64,000 bases of DNA. It comes from Patescibacteria group bacterium. Lineage in GTDB: Bacteria; Patescibacteriota; Patescibacteriia; UBA1558; GWA2-36-10. Position 1 is the first letter of the stretch. Each line of letters starts with the position of its first letter. Of this stretch, positions 601 through 38,502 are shown piece after piece. The notes below the pieces were generated by a model. The model searched no databases, had not been told where the DNA came from, and worked only from the letters and a program-made list of their open reading frames with translations. The stretch spans positions 817,469 through 881,468 of the forward strand of contig JAHJQF010000001.1 of the NCBI GenBank assembly GCA_018819405.1. Reading direction: 5' to 3'. Position numbers and translations under genes: made by a program.

Positions 601-1023
601 TTAATTAATCTTAATTTTTTCTAATACTTCAGCTGCTTTGCCTTCTGGATATGGCTCCTGTGGCCACATCTTGATGCCGTCGTTTTCATGTCGTGGCACA
701 ACGTGAAAATGAATATGGGGAATCAATTGTCCAGCCACTGGATCATTATTTTCACAAACATTATAACCTTCAACTTCTAAACCATTTTTGATAGCCTGTC
801 CCACTTTTTTTACCGTAATTATCAATTGTTGTAATTCATTGGTTGGGATTTCTTCCAAATTGGCGTAGTGTTGTTTAGACACCACCAAAGTGTGCCCATG
901 ATTTACCGGACTAATATCTAAAAAAGCCATAGTAGTCTCATCTTCGTAAACTTTGTAACTAGGTATTTCTCCTTTGATAATTTTGCAAAAAATACAATCT
1001 TCCATAACATTACAGCTAGTCAT
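601..1023 (-). CDS. HIT-family (histidine triad) nucleotide hydrolase
   Basis: 140 aa with the HxHxHxx motif (IPHIHFHVVPR) near the C-terminus, typical of HIT/Hint proteins. Confidence 0.85.
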   Translation of the reverse strand: MTSCNVMEDCIFCKIIKGEIPSYKVYEDETTMAFLDISPVNHGHTLVVSKQHYANLEEIPTNELQQLIITVKKVGQAIKNGLEVEGYNVCENNDPVAGQLIPHIHFHVVPRHENDGIKMWPQEPYPEGKAAEVLEKIKIN

Positions 1024-1043
1024 TCCCGCGAAAGCGGGAATCT
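1019..1043 (-). repeat. GC-rich hairpin element copy 2 (tcattcccgcgaaagcgggaatc), inverted relative to copies 1 and 3
   Basis: Perfect 8-bp palindrome attcccgc/gcgggaat flanked by ga-tt and aatgac, between the HIT and GIY-YIG genes. Confidence 0.5.
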
Positions 1044-1055
1044 AGCAATTAAAAA

Positions 1056-1352
1056 TTAAATTATACGATAATAAAGATCGTCCCAATATGGATTTTCTTT
1101 TTCTATAAGCTCCAACTTCCACTTTCTATTCCATTTTTTAAGTTGTTTTTCTCTCATTATAGCCAAAGTTATATCATATATTATTTCATAATAAACTAAC
1201 TTGTGTATTCCATACCTTTTTGTAAATCCGTCGTGTAGCTTATTTTTATGCTCAAATACGCGCCTAACTATATCATTGGTAACGCCTATATATAATGTAC
1301 CATTTCTTTTATTTGCTAAAATATAAATATAATACTCTTTGTACATAATCAC
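1056..1352 (-). CDS. GIY-YIG nuclease-family small protein (YhbQ/UPF0213-like)
   Basis: 98 aa with YIYIL...GTLYIGVTNDIVRRVFEHK (GIY-YIG core with conserved R and E). Flanked by hairpin elements. Confidence 0.75.
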   Translation of the reverse strand: MIMYKEYYIYILANKRNGTLYIGVTNDIVRRVFEHKNKLHDGFTKRYGIHKLVYYEIIYDITLAIMREKQLKKWNRKWKLELIEKENPYWDDLYYRII

Positions 1353-1366
1353 TTTCCTTCTTTGCT

Positions 1367-1395
1367 GGATTCCCGGGTCAAGCCCGAGAATGACG
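1367..1395 (+). repeat. GC-rich hairpin element copy 3 (ggattcccgggtcaagcccgagaatgacg)
   Basis: Same GGATTCC...GAATGACG frame as copies 1 and 2 with a different stem sequence. Confidence 0.5.
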
Positions 1396-4273: not shown

Positions 4274-5413
4274 TTAAATACTTCTTATAATATTATCCAA
4301 TTTATAGCCTATCTTTTCCCAAGTATATTGACGCAATACTTTTTCGCGACCAGCCTTACCATAGGCCTTGGCTTCTTTGGGATTTCTTAAAAGATAATCA
4401 ATCATAGAAGCCAGATTATCTACATTACCTGGTTTGATCAAAAGACCAGTCTTTCTTTTATCTACTACCGATCTGACTCCCGGCAAATCAGAAGCAATAA
4501 CCGGCACACCTGATGACATGGCTTCAAGAGATACTATACCAAAGGCTTCTGATCTATCAATAGACGGCAAGACAAAAATATCAGCCACACTATAAAACTT
4601 TGGCAAAAAATCATCTGGCACAAAACCAGTAAAAATAATCTTTTTGGACAAGCCCAGACTATCTACCATGCTCTCATAAGTAGAGCGCAAATTACCATCA
4701 CCAATAATTAATAACCTAAAATCATCACTACTGGCTATCTTGTTGATAGCCTGAATAAGCACATTTATGCCCTTAAAATAATGGGCTTTATCTAAGGCTC
4801 CGACAAACATTATTATTTTTTTGTCGTGCAAACCGTATTTATCTATTACTCCTTTATCTCTGATACGAGGCTTAAATAGAAGATGATTAACTCCACATGG
4901 TATTTCTACGAATTTTTCCGGCTCGGCCTGTAGACGCTCTTTCAAGCTGGAATTTTTGGCATAATCAAAAGAAGTAACAATAATCTTGTCAGCTGAATCC
5001 AAAATTCTTGGCGTGACATTATTGGTGTGCCAATTAAAAAACTTCGACAACAGCCCCCTGCCCTGAACATCCATATGATAAGTAACCAGTAAGCGCAGAT
5101 CCTTTATCTTATCCAAAAAATATATTATCTCTGCCCCACCAAAAAAAGGATAATGCAGATGAATAATATCATAAGCAGACAGCTTATAAAAAAGCTGGGG
5201 CAGGATACCGGCATTACCATATTTGAACCACGGCCTTAATCTCTGCACCTCAAAAGGATATTCATCACGATACGGAGTATTGATCTTGTAAAGAGGTGTA
5301 AAAACTGTGACATCATGACCAAGCGTACTAAGAGACCAAGCATTGTAGTAAGCAACATTGCCCATACCGGCCTTATATGGAGGAAAAGTAGATGTAACTT
5401 CTGCTATTTTCAT
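4274..5413 (-). CDS. Glycosyltransferase family 4 (GT-B)
   Basis: 379 aa with a GT4 C-terminal domain (SEAFGIVSLEAMSSGVPVIASD...TGLLIKP). Abuts the downstream GT4. Confidence 0.8.
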   Translation of the reverse strand: MKIAEVTSTFPPYKAGMGNVAYYNAWSLSTLGHDVTVFTPLYKINTPYRDEYPFEVQRLRPWFKYGNAGILPQLFYKLSAYDIIHLHYPFFGGAEIIYFLDKIKDLRLLVTYHMDVQGRGLLSKFFNWHTNNVTPRILDSADKIIVTSFDYAKNSSLKERLQAEPEKFVEIPCGVNHLLFKPRIRDKGVIDKYGLHDKKIIMFVGALDKAHYFKGINVLIQAINKIASSDDFRLLIIGDGNLRSTYESMVDSLGLSKKIIFTGFVPDDFLPKFYSVADIFVLPSIDRSEAFGIVSLEAMSSGVPVIASDLPGVRSVVDKRKTGLLIKPGNVDNLASMIDYLLRNPKEAKAYGKAGREKVLRQYTWEKIGYKLDNIIRSI

Positions 5414-25020: not shown

Positions 25021-25155
25021 AAAAAACTCTCTTTTTATTATAGAGAGTAGATTCGTCATCTTTCCCTCCAAATAGGGTTGGACTTAGCACCTTTCTAAAA
25101 GTAGGTTGCTGACGGATCATAGAGCCAAATCTCTCCCCGTTCTCTTGATAATTTA
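25021..25155 (-). promoter_or_regulatory. SAM-I (S-box) riboswitch with intrinsic terminator, in the metK leader
   Basis: The minus strand reads TTATCAAGAG..GGGAGAGA..GGCTCTATGA..GTCAGCAACC..AAGGTGCTAAGTCC..GGAGGGAAAG, then hairpin actctct-ataataaaa-agagagt plus TTTTT. This matches the S-box consensus blocks. Confidence 0.7.
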
Positions 25156-35860: not shown

Positions 35861-36014
35861 ATATATCTAAATTATAACCTGCTATATAAAATATTGTCAA
35901 AAATCTCATATATTGACAAAAAATCTAAAAAATTATACTATATATTGTTTTCCAAGCGCAAGAAAGCTATATGCTAACTTGCTAAATTGTTCACACAAGC
36001 CTGGAGGAAAGTAC

Positions 36015-36470
36015 ATGGAACGGAAATACCTGACTTTTGAAATGTCCGGACAGATCATTGCACTATGGGTTCTGCAAATTAAAGAAATCTCTGATATGCA
36101 AAATATTCATCTGGTACCCAACGCTGGCGACGGTCTGCTGGGCGTGTTCGCATTGCGAGGTCGCAACATACCGGTCTTTGAATTCCGCACTGGCGAGCCG
36201 CGAATCAGCGAATGCATCATCGTCATCAAAGTGGATGCACCCAATCTGCATAGTTTCGCGCTGATCGTGGATAGACCCGAAGAGGTCTTGAGTATTCCGG
36301 ATGATTTGCCTCGCTCGCCGATCGAAGAAAAAACTCTGCGTCAAGCAGTGACGCCGGCTTGTCAAGGTATCAAATACCAGGTCTCCCACGATGACCGCCA
36401 ATTCTGGCTGATGGATCCTGAGAACATCCTGAGCAAAGAGCAGTTGGCCAGAGCCGCCTCACTGCTCTAG
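36015..36470 (+). CDS. GC-rich cassette F, gene 1: CheW-like domain protein (151 aa)
   Basis: TTGACA-17-TACTAT promoter, RBS ctggaggaaagtac then ATG. Core LTFEMSGQIIALWVLQIKEISDMQNIHLVPNAGDGLLGVFALRGRNIPVFEFR matches the CheW fold (hhxFxhxxxxYxhxhxxVxEIxxxxxIxxVPxxPxxhxGhhNLRGxxhPVhDLR). Confidence 0.65.
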   Translation: MERKYLTFEMSGQIIALWVLQIKEISDMQNIHLVPNAGDGLLGVFALRGRNIPVFEFRTGEPRISECIIVIKVDAPNLHSFALIVDRPEEVLSIPDDLPRSPIEEKTLRQAVTPACQGIKYQVSHDDRQFWLMDPENILSKEQLARAASLL

Positions 36471-36952: not shown

Positions 36953-36981
36953 TTGACATTTGCAGCCTTTTTGTTTATAAT
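36953..36981 (+). promoter_or_regulatory. Consensus sigma70 promoter (TTGACA-17-TATAAT) for the tRNA-Thr/rpmG island
   Basis: ttgacatttgcagcctttttgtttataat, about 22 nt before the tRNA 5' end. Confidence 0.65.
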
Positions 36982-37003: not shown

Positions 37004-37079
37004 GCCGGGATAGCTCAGTTGGTAGAGCAACGGTTTTGTAAACCGTGGGTCGGGGGTTCAAATCCTCTTCCCGGCTCCA
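37004..37079 (+). tRNA. tRNA-Thr (anticodon TGT)
   Basis: gccgggatagctcagttggtagagcaacggttttgtaaaccgtgggtcgggggttcaaatcctcttcccggctcca. Cloverleaf with acceptor gccggga/tcccggc, anticodon loop tttgtaa and encoded CCA. Confidence 0.85.
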
Positions 37080-37181: not shown

Positions 37182-37337
37182 ATGTCACAAGATAATCTAG
37201 CCAAACTGGAATGCACTGATTGCAAAACTATCAATTATCACAGTCATCGTAACAAAAAAACAGTCAAAGAAAGACTGGAAATGAAAAAGTATTGCAAAAA
37301 GTGCAAGAAACATACTATGCACAAAGAGACTAAATAA
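37182..37337 (+). CDS. rpmG: 50S ribosomal protein L33 (zinc-ribbon type)
   Basis: 51 aa: [51 protein letters not shown], the CxxC...CxxC L33 pattern. Below the ORF-track length cutoff. Confidence 0.7.
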
Positions 37338-37350
37338 TTTGGTCTTTTGA

Positions 37351-37473
37351 GGGGGAGTAGTATAGTGGTAGTCCACCCAGCCGCTCGCGAGCAGCTGGGA
37401 CAGGGGTCTCCACCCAGCCCTTCGCGAAGGGCTGGGTCCACCACAGCCACCATTGTTGGCTGGGTCCAAAACC
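37351..37473 (+). pseudogene. 5' portion of a split tRNA-like gene (acceptor + D-arm + CCA-type anticodon-stem region) interrupted by three GC-rich hairpin elements
   Basis: gggggagtagtatagtggtag, then hairpins tccacccagccgctcgcgagcagctggg, acccagcccttcgcgaagggctgggtcc and accacagccaccattgttggctgggtcc between ggtctcc and aaaacc. No T-arm. Its acceptor is complementary to the 3' piece at 37933-37939. Confidence 0.45.
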
Positions 37474-37515
37474 TAAAAAAGCATAATTAAAACAAGAAAA
37501 GCGATTATTTATTAT

Positions 37516-37752
37516 GTGTATATTTTAAAATTAAATAGCGGCAGATTTTATATAGGTTATACGAAAAATATAAAAAGAAGATTATCTGAACACAAAAGAA
37601 AAAAATCTTACATAACTGGCCGAGAAAAATGTTTTGAATTAATCTACTTTGAAGCTTATAATGAGATATACCCAGCTCAAGAAAGAGAGAAAAAACTCAA
37701 ACAATACGGATCAGCTTATCATGGATTATTAAAAAGGTTAAAAATTCGCTAA
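37516..37752 (+). CDS. GIY-YIG nuclease-family small protein (78 aa), second copy in the window
   Basis: MYILKLNSGRFYIGYTKNIKRRLSEHK...E..K. Sits between the two halves of the split tRNA-like gene. Confidence 0.7.
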   Translation: MYILKLNSGRFYIGYTKNIKRRLSEHKRKKSYITGREKCFELIYFEAYNEIYPAQEREKKLKQYGSAYHGLLKRLKIR

Positions 37753-37760
37753 CAGTTGGA

Positions 37761-37836
37761 GGGGGTGTAGTGTCAATGGCTAGCACGTCGGTCTCCAAAA
37801 CCGTAAGTCTGGGTTCGAATCCTAGCACCCCTGCCA
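37761..37836 (+). tRNA. tRNA-Trp (anticodon CCA), intact
   Basis: gggggtgtagtgtcaatggctagcacgtcggtctccaaaaccgtaagtctgggttcgaatcctagcacccctgcca. U8 and T-loop ttcgaat are present, with a G-U closing pair in the acceptor. Confidence 0.85.
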
Positions 37837-37866
37837 TTTGTTAGTGAATTTTTTAATTAAAAATTT

Positions 37867-37943
37867 CTGGTCTCCACCCAGCCGCTCGCGAGAGGCTGGG
37901 TCCAAAACCTCTAGCGTGGGTTCGATTCCTACCTCCCCTGCCA
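37867..37943 (+). pseudogene. 3' portion of the split tRNA-like gene (anticodon-loop region with one inserted hairpin, T-arm, acceptor 3' strand, CCA)
   Basis: ctggtctcc[acccagccgctcgcgagaggctgggtcc]aaaacctctagcgtgggttcgattcctacctcccctgcca. Removing the bracketed 28 nt gives ggtctccaaaacc, identical to the tRNA-Trp anticodon loop. Confidence 0.45.
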
Positions 37944-38022
37944 GCTTAAGATCATCTTTTGAGATGGTTTTTTTGTTTGCAAAAGAAAAGGAGACTCACG
38001 AATTTTGAATTCATAAATCTCC

Positions 38023-38502
38023 TTAATCATCATCATTGTAAATGCGACATTGATATTCGCATTCATCACACCAGCCATCACTATCTAACTTTGTTGCTGG
38101 ATTGCCACAGTTTAGACATATACCCTTCTCTCTTGCTTCATTTACCTTCCTTTCTTTTCTTAAGGCTATTTCTTTTGCTTCTCTCTGAGCTTTTAATGAC
38201 TCTTTATTTATCCTTTCCATTTCTAATCTATAACGCTCTTCTCTGTTTACTTCCCGTTCTTTTGTTATTATGTCATATTTCTTTACTTCTTCACTAAGCT
38301 GTTTGTCAAAACATTTAGGGCATAGTTTTTTCCCGTGAAAATTGGTGAAGATTGTTTCTTTTTTCTTTTTGCATTTATCACAAATGCCTTTACTACAAAG
38401 TGTGATGTTTTTGCCCTGTCTAGATGAGGCGCCTCTCTTACTATCCAAAACAATACCCACCCAAACCACGAACATAAGCAGGGCTAAGACGATGATTCCC
38501 AT
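38023..38502 (-). CDS. Hypothetical membrane-anchored protein with two zinc-ribbon-like Cys clusters and a coiled coil
   Basis: 159 aa. N-terminal TM, CxxC...CxxC pairs (CDKCKKK...CPKCF and CLNCGN...CDEC). Confidence 0.4.
   Translation of the reverse strand: MGIIVLALLMFVVWVGIVLDSKRGASSRQGKNITLCSKGICDKCKKKKETIFTNFHGKKLCPKCFDKQLSEEVKKYDIITKEREVNREERYRLEMERINKESLKAQREAKEIALRKERKVNEAREKGICLNCGNPATKLDSDGWCDECEYQCRIYNDDD

What the first reader, a model, noticed from the sequence alone, without database searches (positions are those of the whole stretch)
37363..37903. Family of 28-nt GC-rich hairpin elements (CCACCCAGCC-loop-GGCTGGGTCC) inserted at the anticodon-loop position
Four elements were found (e1 37371-37398, e2 and e3 in tandem at 37412-37467, e4 37877-37904). 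All have a 7-12 bp perfect stem with variable palindromic loops (gctcgcgag, ttcgcgaa, accattgt). e2/e3 and e4 can each be excised precisely to restore ggtctccaaaacc, the tRNA-Trp anticodon loop, with a tcca direct repeat at the junctions. Precise insertion within the anticodon loop as a helix extending the anticodon stem is reminiscent of archaeal/eukaryal-type tRNA introns or of site-specific miniature palindromic elements. Neither is expected in bacteria.
Basis: seen in the sequence. Interest (0 to 1): 0.6.

Follow-up and report, generated by a model that had tools for sequence, protein, structure and literature searches.

The report
Mobile hairpins in a displaced tRNA-Trp
The four GC-rich hairpins are real, but they are not tRNA introns: they are copies of a tiny mobile palindrome, common in Patescibacteria (CPR), lodged in the dead halves of a tRNA-Trp gene that was split and replaced by a cassette carrying a small GIY-YIG nuclease gene and a spare tRNA-Trp.

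Summary
Four related 24-nt GC-rich palindromes lie at 37373-37904. Three sit between TCCA repeats in tRNA-Trp anticodon-loop sequence; e1 sits in the D-stem.

A 97%-identical relative (L028) carries the same tRNA-Trp uninterrupted. Removing e1 and a 492-bp insertion from the window rebuilds that gene exactly. The insertion carries e2 and e3, a 78-aa single-domain GIY-YIG nuclease gene, a different complete tRNA-Trp, and e4. The interrupted copies are therefore two halves of one displaced, dead gene.

The layout recurs. Of 80 loci encoding relatives of the nuclease, 76 have an intact tRNA-Trp just downstream. Most have a tRNA-Trp 5' fragment plus the hairpin just upstream.

The same hairpin also occurs alone in many Patescibacteria genomes, often flanked by 4-nt direct repeats (TCAA, TCCA).

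The nuclease is homologous to a second GIY-YIG gene in the window. That gene is flanked by the window's only two matches to the published Ssn-related hairpin motif.

Best reading: an Ssn-like nuclease with its hairpin repeats, coupled to a rescue tRNA. The intron reading is rejected. The "miniature palindromic element" reading is supported. How the hairpins move is inferred, not shown.

The parts
36953..36981 (+). Promoter-like site (TTGACA-17-TATAAT, 12/12) upstream of tRNA-Thr. Likely drives tRNA-Thr, rpmG and the whole tRNA-Trp region.
   Evidence: consensus scan only; function inferred
37004..37079 (+). tRNA-Thr(UGU)
   Evidence: ARAGORN; Rfam 70.6 bits
37182..37337 (+). rpmG (ribosomal protein L33)
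   Evidence: Pfam PF00471, E 8.6e-18
37351..37372 (+). Displaced resident tRNA-Trp 'A', 5' part, first segment (acceptor 5' strand, D-arm up to GT of the D-stem 3' strand)
   Evidence: Joined with 37400-37412 and 37905-37943 it is 100% identical to the intact tRNA-Trp of L028 616-689
37373..37399 (.). e1: 27-nt hairpin insertion in the D-stem (CCA + 24-nt core with a C.A mismatch). A near-identical hairpin sits at the same position in L030.
37400..37412 (+). tRNA-Trp 'A' 5' part, second segment (ACAGGGGTCTCCA: rest of D-stem, anticodon stem 5' strand, loop up to the CCA anticodon)
37413..37904 (+). The whole 492-bp insertion relative to the empty site of L028. Contains e2, e3, the GIY-YIG gene, tRNA-Trp 'B' and e4.
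37413..37440 (.). e2: perfect 24-nt palindrome CCCAGCCCTTCGCGAAGGGCTGGG plus duplicated TCCA
37441..37468 (.). e3: degenerate copy (CCACAGCCACCATTGTTGGCTGGG) plus TCCA, in tandem with e2
37469..37474 (+). AAACCT: cassette-internal copy of the 3' side of the anticodon arm. Left inner half of the 14-bp duplication GGTCTCCA/AAACCT.
37516..37752 (+). 78-aa single-domain GIY-YIG nuclease gene (GTG start; the family's ATG is ATT here). All residues invariant in the family are retained.
   Evidence: Pfam PF01541, E 5.7e-12; alignment A1; PDB profile hits to UPF0213 proteins 1zg2/1ywl; NCBI MBU1203254.1
37761..37837 (+). tRNA-Trp(CCA) 'B': the only intact tRNA-Trp in the window. It lies inside the insertion and differs in sequence type from 'A'.
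   Evidence: ARAGORN; Rfam 54.7 bits; nhmmer
37869..37876 (+). GGTCTCCA: cassette-internal copy of the 5' side of the anticodon arm, preceded by a 31-nt AT-rich spacer
37877..37904 (.). e4: CCCAGCCGCTCGCGAGAGGCTGGG plus duplicated TCCA
37905..37943 (+). Displaced tRNA-Trp 'A', 3' part (AAACCTC..., T-arm, acceptor 3' strand, GCCA)
   Evidence: nhmmer E 3.2e-10
1018..1395 (-). Related unit elsewhere in the window: a 96/98-aa GIY-YIG gene (1056-1352, minus strand). It is flanked by the window's only two matches to the published Ssn-related hairpin motif, at 1018-1045(+) and 1365-1395(-).

Best explanation
The hairpins are copies of a 24-26 nt GC-rich palindromic insertion element, consensus A-CCC(A/C)GCC-NN-TCGCGA-NN-GGC(T/G)GGG-T. 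The element is widespread in Patescibacteria and linked to small single-domain GIY-YIG nucleases related to the Ssn family.

In this window they sit in the remains of the organism's original tRNA-Trp gene. That gene was split at its anticodon (TCCA) by a 492-bp cassette. The cassette carries one such nuclease gene and a complete, different tRNA-Trp. The split gene is dead and the cassette tRNA is the working copy.

The hairpin inserts next to T-C-(C/A)-A tetranucleotides and duplicates them. The Trp anticodon loop (cTCCAa) is such a site. So are TCAA in D-loops and the encoded CCA 3' ends of tRNAs.

Inferred mechanism:
1. By analogy with Ssn, the nuclease binds the hairpin when the DNA is single-stranded and nicks a few nucleotides 5' of it.
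2. The resulting ends promote copying of the hairpin into nearby exposed TCMA sites.
3. They also promote recombination between hairpin copies, which integrates or deletes the DNA lying between them.
4. A hairpin in the anticodon loop kills a single-copy essential tRNA. Only genomes holding a spare tRNA-Trp survive, so nuclease gene and spare tRNA travel as one 'kill-and-replace' cassette.
5. The cassette cannot be lost without losing the only working tRNA-Trp.
6. It is probably expressed by read-through from the tRNA-Thr/rpmG promoter.

Shown here: the anatomy, the filled/empty pair, the recurrence, the target duplications and the homology. Inferred: the nuclease's substrate, the way hairpins are copied, and the addiction logic.
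For: (1) Empty site. L028 shares 97% nt identity across rpmG and has an uninterrupted tRNA-Trp. Window 37351-37372 + 37400-37412 + 37905-37943 matches it 74/74.

(2) Same layout in another species. L029/L031 (nuclease 75% identical) has a tRNA-Trp 5' half, GGGTCTCCA-hairpin-TCCAAAACC, the GIY-YIG gene, an intact tRNA-Trp, the same 43-bp repeat, and a 3' half with a further hairpin in the T-loop. There the dead and the intact tRNA types are swapped relative to the window.

(3) Recurrence.
- 76 of 80 loci encoding relatives have an intact tRNA-Trp, in most 2-80 nt downstream and in a few up to about 300 nt; 2 have tRNA-Arg(CCT) instead.
- 44 of 64 distinct loci have a tRNA-Trp 5' fragment upstream.

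(4) Hairpin density. 108 GC-rich hairpins in 81.5 kb around the cassettes, against 15 in 251 kb of flanks, only 2 of those of this family.

(5) Family conservation. In 54 distinct hairpins, 94.8% of cells are paired and 6 of 10 pairs show compensatory changes.

(6) Dispersed copies. The exact motif hit 94 places in low-GC MAGs, mostly labelled Patescibacteria or a named CPR phylum and spanning more than 10 such phyla. There were 3-5 copies or more per MAG, even though the scan was truncated.

(7) Target duplication.
- 17 of the 94 have a perfect 4-nt direct repeat abutting both sides (TCAA/TTGA 10, TCCA/TGGA 5); about 0.4 expected.
- In tRNA context: GGTC-TCCA[hp]TCCA-AAACC; D-loop GTG-TCAA[hp]TCAA-TGG in L043.

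(8) Link to the nuclease. In 630 kb around the dispersed hairpins, 12 of 15 GIY-YIG ORFs lie within 500 nt of the hairpin.

(9) Link to Ssn.
- PMC11893778 describes single-domain ~94-aa GIY-YIG ssDNA nucleases. Their genes are flanked by 20-50 nt hairpin repeats, and they cut just 5' of the hairpin.
- The window holds a 96-aa GIY-YIG gene flanked by the only two matches to that paper's motif (0.1 expected).
- The 78-aa protein is 39% identical to it. Profile-profile probability is 99.3%, E 2e-20.

(10) No group I intron or any other Rfam family in 37250-38050. No BHB motif.
Against: - The hairpins do not fit the published SRM search sequence, so the Ssn analogy rests on protein homology and architecture.
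- CDD family membership (cd10448) could not be tested. The best solved relatives are UPF0213 proteins.
- GIY-YIG enzymes hydrolyse DNA and cannot join strands, so something else must copy or ligate the hairpin. No mechanism for a 3-4 nt duplication is demonstrated.
- The working tRNA carries the same TCCA target with no visible protection. Its intactness is explained only by selection.
- Most dispersed hairpins (about 78 of 90 loci) have no GIY-YIG gene nearby. Many lack flanking repeats, and some look like ordinary terminators.
- In most cassette loci the upstream fragment is nearly identical to the 5' half of the adjacent intact tRNA (33 of 44). That also fits a local partial duplication rather than imported cargo.
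- The rest of the source genome could not be scanned.
- The hairpin alignment was built from sequences picked by a hairpin finder, which inflates the percentage paired.
Confidence: 0.75

Rival explanations
1. The hairpins are introns (archaeal BHB-type or a new kind) that are cut out of the transcript, so the interrupted tRNA-Trp is functional.
For: An artificial join of the 'A' halves with e4 folds as a cloverleaf with a hairpin on the anticodon loop. ARAGORN in intron mode calls it tRNA-Trp with a 28-nt intron.
Against: - In the genome the halves are 492 bp apart, with an ORF and a whole tRNA between them.
- e1 disrupts the D-stem and pairs with e4 in silico.
- The junction is a 4 x 5 internal loop, not bulge-helix-bulge.
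- The same hairpin lies in non-tRNA DNA in many genomes.
- An intact tRNA-Trp is present.
- Many related loci keep only a 5' fragment.
Confidence: 0.02
2. The hairpins are not mobile elements in their own right. They are repair scars: templated fill-ins copied from a neighbouring hairpin by microhomology-mediated template switching, each time the nuclease breaks tRNA-like DNA.
For: - Extreme local enrichment next to the nuclease gene.
- Hairpins sit at deletion junctions, e.g. anticodon loop joined to T-loop, or D-arm joined to anticodon loop.
- Short repeats at junctions could be microhomology.
- A hairpin nested in a hairpin (L044).
Against: - Solo copies lie far from any GIY-YIG gene, with clean 4-nt direct repeats and the same 24-nt sequence, in many phyla.
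- The deletion junctions are equally explained by recombination between two inserted copies.
Confidence: 0.13
3. The hairpin mainly serves as the attachment or recombination site of the cassette. A circular nuclease+tRNA unit integrates by recombination between its own GGTCTCCA-hairpin-TCCAAAACC and the same sequence in a target. The direct repeats are att-like products rather than target duplications.
For: - 43-bp identical direct repeats flank the cassette in L029.
- The 14-bp anticodon-arm duplication plus hairpins flank it in the window.
- Similar two-sided loci: L061, L071, L073, L077, L096, L097.
Against: - The empty site in L028 has no hairpin.
- No recombinase is encoded in the cassette.
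- Only 16 of 61 loci have a 3' fragment.
- It does not explain solo hairpins with TCAA repeats.
Confidence: 0.07
4. The hairpins are kept for an RNA-level role, such as a processing site, a stabiliser of the nuclease mRNA 5' end, or an attenuator, and their position in tRNA debris is incidental.
For: - The hairpin lies 20-120 nt (typically 20-50) upstream of the nuclease start codon in most loci.
- Loop positions vary as C-N-N-G while the stem co-varies.
- Some solo copies are followed by T-runs like terminators.
Against: - It does not explain e1, the T-loop and D-loop copies, the tandem e2/e3, or the target duplications.
- Ssn acts on ssDNA, not RNA (PMC11893778).
Confidence: 0.03

Closest known systems
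Ssn nucleases and their NTS/SRM hairpin repeats (Chenal et al., Nat Commun 2025, PMC11893778)
   Same: - A single-domain GIY-YIG protein under 100 aa.
- Its gene is flanked by 20-50 nt GC-rich hairpin repeats that are also dispersed in the genome.
- A GTC-containing 5' flank and a C just after the palindrome.
- A canonical SRM-ssn-SRM unit sits in the same window (1018-1395), and its protein is 39% identical to the tRNA-linked one.
   Different: - The hairpin sequence does not fit the published SRM pattern.
- The protein is shorter (78-81 aa) and lacks the WNRKWKLELIE C-terminus.
- The gene is fused into a unit with a tRNA gene.
- The hairpins interrupt tRNA sequence with target duplications.
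- The paper mentions neither tRNA nor CPR, and it does not show how the repeats spread.
REP/BIME repeats with RAYT, and IS200/IS605 'peel-and-paste' elements (own knowledge; also discussed in PMC11893778)
   Same: - Short palindromes recognised as ssDNA hairpins.
- A short specific tetranucleotide next to the hairpin.
- One enzyme gene flanked by hairpins, plus many solo copies.
   Different: - The enzyme there is an HUH/Y1 transposase that forms covalent intermediates, not a GIY-YIG hydrolase.
- Those elements make no target duplication.
- There is no GTAG head here.
GC clusters, PstI palindromes and double-hairpin elements of fungal mitochondria (own knowledge; yeast GC clusters: PMC4478555, title and abstract only)
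   Same: - Very small GC-rich palindromes mobile in AT-rich genomes.
- They often sit next to tRNA genes and next to mobile endonuclease ORFs.
   Different: - Organellar, with different sequences and no assigned enzyme.
- Not known to split a tRNA gene that is then replaced.
Free-standing GIY-YIG homing endonuclease genes that bring a copy of part of their target gene, e.g. Allomyces atp6-ORF360 (own knowledge); T4 SegB in the tRNA cluster (PMC2330249, abstract)
   Same: - The nuclease gene is inserted in or beside an essential gene.
- The displaced original piece is left as a pseudogene.
- A functional gene is restored by sequence that came with the element.
- Filled and empty alleles exist.
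   Different: - Those enzymes have separate DNA-binding domains and long dsDNA targets.
- No hairpin repeats are involved.
- Here the restored tRNA still carries the presumed target.
Integrative elements that insert in tRNA genes and restore them from their own att site (own knowledge; fragments discussed in PMC9897764, abstract)
   Same: - Insertion within a tRNA gene, with a duplicated tRNA segment.
- An intact gene plus a leftover fragment result.
   Different: - Those use integrases, restore the 3' part and are kilobases long.
- Here there is no recombinase, the 5' part or the whole tRNA is supplied, and the unit is about 0.5 kb.
Archaeal tRNA introns that transpose between tRNA genes (Fujishima et al. 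2010, as cited in PMC10714607)
   Same: Short sequences that spread among tRNA genes at loop positions.
   Different: Those have BHB motifs and are spliced by EndA and a ligase, so the host gene stays functional. Here there is no BHB, and the hosts are gene fragments.

Membership tests
Archaeal/eukaryal-type (BHB) tRNA intron | One continuous gene whose two exons directly flank the intron | tested here: not met
   The halves are separated by 492 bp containing an ORF and a complete tRNA. The 5' half has a second insertion in the D-stem.
Archaeal/eukaryal-type (BHB) tRNA intron | Bulge-helix-bulge motif (two 3-nt bulges separated by 4 bp) at the exon-intron boundaries | tested here: not met
   The MFE fold of A+e4 gives a 4 x 5 nt internal loop between the anticodon stem and an 8-bp hairpin.
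Archaeal/eukaryal-type (BHB) tRNA intron | Splicing endonuclease and RNA ligase encoded in the genome | not testable with these tools
   Only 64 kb of a ~1.04-Mb contig is available. The window's ORFs were not screened systematically for EndA or RtcB.
Group I intron in a bacterial tRNA anticodon loop | Group I ribozyme core detectable between the tRNA halves | tested here: not met
   Rfam cmscan of 37250-38050 at E<=1 finds only tRNA 'B' and a chance sRNA hit.
Ssn nuclease / SRM hairpin system (PMC11893778) | Single-domain GIY-YIG protein of about 90-100 aa | tested here: met
   78 aa. PF01541 covers residues 2-63. There is no other domain.
Ssn nuclease / SRM hairpin system (PMC11893778) | Belongs to the CDD family cd10448 clade | tested here: inconclusive
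   CDD is not available. As a proxy, the protein is 39% identical (E 1e-10) to the in-window 96-aa protein whose gene is flanked by SRM-pattern matches, with hhalign probability 99.3%. The closest solved structures are UPF0213 proteins. No Neisseria SsnA sequence was available for comparison.
Ssn nuclease / SRM hairpin system (PMC11893778) | Gene flanked by hairpin repeats on one or both sides | tested here: met
   e2/e3 lie upstream and e4 downstream in the window. Hairpins lie upstream in most of the 80 related loci.
Ssn nuclease / SRM hairpin system (PMC11893778) | Repeats fit the published SRM search sequence HGTCWYN(0-2)YYVSBRHN(0-5)WNVSBRGN(0-2)RNCYNB | tested here: not met
   The pattern hits only 1018-1045 and 1365-1395 in the window, not e1-e4.
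Ssn nuclease / SRM hairpin system (PMC11893778) | Cuts single-stranded DNA only, a few nt 5' of the hairpin | not testable with these tools
   Needs purified protein and oligonucleotides.
REP / RAYT | Associated HUH (Y1) transposase and a conserved GT(A/G)G head on the palindrome | tested here: not met
   The neighbouring gene is a GIY-YIG. The flanks are TCCA/TCAA, not GTAG.
MITE (non-autonomous IS derivative) | Target-site duplication | tested here: met
   TCCA in anticodon loops, TCAA in a D-loop, and 17 of 94 solo copies with a perfect 4-nt direct repeat.
MITE (non-autonomous IS derivative) | Terminal inverted repeats shared with a parent IS that encodes a transposase; length 50-500 bp | tested here: not met
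   The element is 24-26 nt. No transposase gene was seen next to any copy. The only recurrent neighbour is a GIY-YIG gene.
Free-standing homing-endonuclease cassette | Filled and empty alleles of the same site in close relatives | tested here: met
   Window versus L028, 97% nt identity in rpmG.
Free-standing homing-endonuclease cassette | Nuclease with a DNA-binding module that recognises and cuts the empty allele | tested here: not met
   No domain beyond the 78-aa catalytic core. Cleavage of the empty allele is not testable here.

The most novel reading that the evidence does not exclude
A natural 'cleave-and-rescue' drive. An Ssn-type ssDNA nuclease and its 24-nt hairpins destroy the single-copy, essential tRNA-Trp gene by inserting at the anticodon itself. 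The same cassette supplies the replacement tRNA, so the host cannot lose it. The system has spread across Patescibacteria and has sister versions on tRNA-Arg, tRNA-Gly and tRNA-Tyr. It would also give the first natural evidence of how Ssn-associated hairpin repeats multiply: target T-C-M-A, with a 4-nt duplication.
Probability: 0.3. Interest if true: 0.85.

Novelty: new variant of a known kind. Interest (0 to 1): 0.68.

Why it matters
- It removes a false lead. There is no evidence here for protein-spliced tRNA introns in bacteria.
- It shows that the 'two interrupted plus one intact tRNA-Trp' picture is one invaded gene plus an imported replacement. Annotators of CPR genomes should expect tRNA fragments, hairpins and a small GIY-YIG ORF at the tRNA-Trp locus.
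- It ties a recently described enzyme family (Ssn, site-specific ssDNA nucleases with hairpin repeats) to a concrete selfish-element architecture. It also gives filled/empty sites and target duplications for the hairpins, which the Ssn paper left unexplained.
- If the nuclease does cut next to GGTCTCCA-hairpin, this is a compact natural kill-and-replace system aimed at an unmutable target, the Trp anticodon. That is of interest for mobile-element biology and as a source of new ssDNA-cutting specificities.

Tried and rejected
- Motif scan of viral contigs. 25 hits, all unrelated GC-rich terminators or coding sequence in 49-69% GC contigs. Dropped.
- Group I intron or other known RNA. Rfam at gathering score on the whole window and at E<=1 on 37250-38050 gave only tRNAs, the SAM riboswitch and one chance-level sRNA hit (E 0.61, 22 bits against a gathering score of 52).
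- BHB intron. Folding and ARAGORN intron mode on artificial joins. Formally callable, but the real locus is not a continuous gene.
- Closest strain. The P0001 contig (nuclease 99% identical, 847 kb) is not on record, so hairpin content in a near-identical strain could not be compared.
- NCBIfam. No family above cut-off for the 78-aa protein.
- Supplementary tables of the Ssn paper are not held. No Neisseria SsnA sequence was available, so direct comparison and CDD assignment were impossible.
- Published SRM pattern on e1-e4: no match.
- Whole-genome copy number in the source MAG could not be done.
- Literature. Eight full-text searches for GIY-YIG + tRNA, CPR, hairpin or intron combinations found no description of this cassette or hairpin. 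Absence from this library is not proof of absence.
- Simple 'element brings only a 5' half' model. It fits many one-sided loci but not the window, L029 or L041, where the whole tRNA is foreign. Kept as one of two modes.
Full report
**What is in the sequence**

The region follows a perfect sigma-70-type promoter (36953-36981), tRNA-Thr (37004-37079) and rpmG (37182-37337). After these come, in order:
- a tRNA-Trp 5' part (37351-37412) interrupted by hairpin e1 (37373-37399);
- hairpins e2 and e3, each followed by TCCA (37413-37468);
- AAACCT and an A-rich stretch;
- a 78-aa ORF (37516-37752) that is a GIY-YIG nuclease domain and nothing else (Pfam E 5.7e-12);
- an intact tRNA-Trp (37761-37837; ARAGORN and Rfam);
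- a 31-nt spacer, then GGTCTCCA;
- hairpin e4 plus TCCA (37877-37904);
- a tRNA-Trp 3' part (37905-37943).

The four hairpins share the stem CCCAGCC/GGCTGGG. In e1, e2 and e4 they also share the centre TCGCGA. Predicted energies are -12 to -21 kcal/mol. The motif occurs nowhere else in the 64 kb. An independent assembly is identical over 6.2 kb. The corrections are that e1 lies in the D-stem and the coordinates are off by 1-2 nt.

**The key comparison**

A short ENA contig (L028) encodes the same L33 protein, with 97% nucleotide identity across the region. It has an uninterrupted tRNA-Trp. Joining window 37351-37372, 37400-37412 and 37905-37943 reproduces that tRNA exactly, 74 of 74 nt.

Relative to this empty site the window therefore has two insertions. 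One is e1 (27 nt) in the D-stem. The other is a 492-bp block in the anticodon loop, flanked by TCCA on both sides. The 'interrupted copies' are two halves of one gene. The intact tRNA-Trp is of a different sequence type and lies inside the insertion.

**Recurrence**

The nuclease has relatives named by their sources as Patescibacteria, Parcubacteria or Falkowbacteria.

In another species (L029/L031, protein 75% identical) the layout is the same. It runs: 5' half, GGGTCTCCA-hairpin-TCCAAAACC, nuclease gene, intact tRNA-Trp, the same 43-bp repeat, then a 3' half with a further hairpin in its T-loop. There the dead gene is of the type that is alive in the window, and vice versa.

A metagenome scan with the protein alignment returned 80 loci.
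- 76 have an intact tRNA-Trp on the same strand, in most 2-80 nt downstream and in a few up to about 300 nt. Two have tRNA-Arg(CCT).
- Among 64 distinct loci, 44 have a tRNA-Trp 5' fragment upstream. 33 of those are at least 95% identical to the 5' half of the neighbouring intact tRNA. Only 16 of 61 also have a 3' fragment.
- So two forms exist. In the common one-sided form a 5' half is duplicated around hairpin plus nuclease. In the two-sided form (window, L029 and others) a whole foreign tRNA came in.

**The hairpin family**

GC-rich hairpins are more than a hundred times denser around the cassettes than in their flanks: 108 in 81.5 kb, against 15 in 251 kb, only 2 of the latter of this family.

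They sit in the anticodon loop (most), in D-loops, in the D-stem and in T-loops. They also sit at junctions where the segment between two such positions is missing.

In 54 distinct copies the stem is kept through compensatory changes at 6 of 10 pairs (CCCAGCC/GGCTGGG versus CCCCGCC/GGCGGGG, and so on). The four central bases vary as C-N-N-G. The caveat is that these sequences were collected with a hairpin finder.

A scan of one genome per species with CCCAGCC-NN-TCGCGA-NNN-GCTGGG stopped at its 120-locus limit.
- 94 hits lie in low-GC MAGs, mostly labelled Patescibacteria or a named CPR phylum and spanning more than ten such phyla. Several genomes have 3-5 hits.
- The remaining 30 hits are chance matches in high-GC (58-75% GC) genomes, mostly actinobacteria.
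- Most of the 94 are not near a tRNA-Trp or a nuclease gene.
- 17 have a perfect 4-nt direct repeat on both sides (TCAA/TTGA 10, TCCA/TGGA 5), against about 0.4 expected. Nine more have a 3-nt repeat.

In tRNA context the unbroken sequence is known, and it shows the same rule:
- GGTC-TCCA[hp]TCCA-AAACC in anticodon loops;
- GTG-TCAA[hp]TCAA-TGG in a D-loop (L043);
- TACA[hp]ACA for e1 and its counterpart in L030.

Some copies abut the encoded CCA end of other tRNAs. The hairpin thus behaves as a very small insertion element with a T-C-(C/A)-A preference. The Trp anticodon loop contains that target.

**Link to a known enzyme family**

A 2025 paper describes Ssn, single-domain ~94-aa GIY-YIG nucleases. 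These enzymes:
- bind a hairpin repeat (NTS/SRM) only in single-stranded DNA;
- cut a few nucleotides 5' of it;
- are encoded by genes typically flanked by the repeats, an arrangement the authors liken to an insertion sequence (PMC11893778).

The paper does not mention tRNAs or CPR.

The window has a second GIY-YIG gene (1056-1352, minus strand). It is flanked by the only two matches in the window to that paper's search pattern. One of them, AGTCATTCCCGCGAAAGCGGGAATCTAG, fits the Neisseria consensus apart from the first base (shuffles give 0.1 matches). Its protein family is very large and 63-77% identical across phyla.

The tRNA-linked 78-aa protein is 39% identical to it. The two clades align at 99.3% probability (E 2e-20), though the tRNA-linked clade lacks the C-terminal extension. 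In 630 kb around dispersed hairpins, 12 of 15 GIY-YIG ORFs lie within 500 nt of the hairpin. Other paralogues sit just upstream of tRNA-Gly, tRNA-Tyr and tRNA-Arg genes.

The hairpins e1-e4 do not fit the published pattern, and CDD membership could not be tested. I therefore call the system Ssn-like, not Ssn.

**How it most likely works**

Shown: the resident tRNA-Trp is split and dead; the working copy came with the nuclease gene; the hairpins are insertions with short target duplications.

Inferred:
- The nuclease recognises its hairpin in single-stranded DNA and nicks beside it.
- The breaks promote copying of the hairpin into nearby T-C-M-A sites. tRNA genes offer such sites in their loop-coding segments.
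- The breaks also promote recombination between hairpin copies. This would explain the deletion junctions, the tandem and nested copies, and the direct repeats around the cassette.
- A hairpin in the anticodon loop destroys an essential single-copy gene. Only a linked spare tRNA allows survival, which welds nuclease and tRNA into a unit that cannot be lost.
- The intact copy keeps the same TCCA target. I can explain its integrity only by selection.

A hydrolytic GIY-YIG enzyme cannot by itself join DNA, so the copying step remains open.

**Rivals**

- Splicing is close to excluded: no continuous gene, no BHB, no group I core, and the hairpins also occur outside tRNAs.
- Templated repair scars, att-like recombination sites and an RNA-level role each explain part of the data. 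They are not mutually exclusive with the main reading.

**Novelty**

Eight full-text searches found no description of this hairpin, or of a GIY-YIG plus tRNA cassette in CPR.

The components resemble known things: Ssn/SRM, REP/RAYT, mitochondrial GC clusters, and homing-endonuclease genes that bring a piece of their target. The combination is new to me in three respects: the tRNA-anticodon target, the rescue tRNA, and the 24-nt element with a target duplication. I rate it a new variant of a known kind.

Noticed in passing
window 1018-1395: A second GIY-YIG gene (96/98 aa, minus strand, 1056-1352). It is flanked by inverted hairpins that are the window's only two matches to the published Ssn-related motif. 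One fits the Neisseria NTS consensus apart from the first base. Its protein family is 63-77% identical across distant phyla.
   Followed up: yes
window 25053-25154 (minus strand): SAM riboswitch (S-box), Rfam 66.7 bits.
   Followed up: no
window 37507-37518: The family's start ATG TAT TAC GTG reads ATT TAT TAT GTG here. The nuclease must therefore start at GTG (or the rare ATT) and lacks the usual MYY N-terminus.
   Followed up: partly
window 35913-36470: A CheW-like domain protein (Pfam E 5e-15) directly upstream, in a Patescibacteria genome. Its partners were not examined.
   Followed up: no
L097 3695-3720 and 4751-4776: Two hairpins of the family lie inside ~100-nt direct repeats (ctctccA[hp]Tccacaaactc). 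The repeats bracket a pair of small ORFs that look like a toxin-antitoxin pair, judged by eye and not scanned against any family library. This may be another DNA segment captured between hairpins.
   Followed up: partly
L089, L091-L093, downstream of the intact tRNA-Trp: Three or four tandem remnants of the form TCTCCAA-hairpin-CCTTCCTCCCCTGC. They look like a graveyard of tRNA 3' ends from successive displacements. The 'intact' tRNA there has an altered anticodon loop (TTTCCAAAA) and T-loop (GTCCGATT).
   Followed up: no
L044, about 2415-2470: A hairpin inserted inside another hairpin, just past its TCGCGA centre.
   Followed up: no
L177 6521-6900; L124 about 5028-5312; L101, L103, L191: Related small GIY-YIG genes sit directly upstream of tRNA-Gly(GCC), tRNA-Tyr(GTA) and tRNA-Arg(CCT). 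The Arg cassettes have D-arm-hairpin-TCCTAAACC junctions. The nuclease-plus-tRNA pairing is therefore not limited to Trp.
   Followed up: partly
L208 622-645; L182 6852-6875: Hairpins abut the encoded CCA 3' end of tRNA-Ile and tRNA-Arg(TCT) (…CACCA[hp]). This suggests NCCA ends are also targets, or that the hairpin serves as a terminator there.
   Followed up: no
L124, L145, L196 (genome collection): Low-GC MAGs labelled 'uncultured Gammaproteobacteria' carry the Patescibacteria-type GIY-YIG/tRNA-Trp cassette and several hairpins. The taxonomic labels look doubtful.
   Followed up: no
L030 about 2330-2460: The closest cassette relative (nuclease 78% identical) has a hairpin at the same D-stem position as e1, one base different. 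Its anticodon-arm repeat has decayed (GGGTCCCT…CAGAACC). Either the insertion is old or it was co-transferred with the cassette flank.
   Followed up: partly
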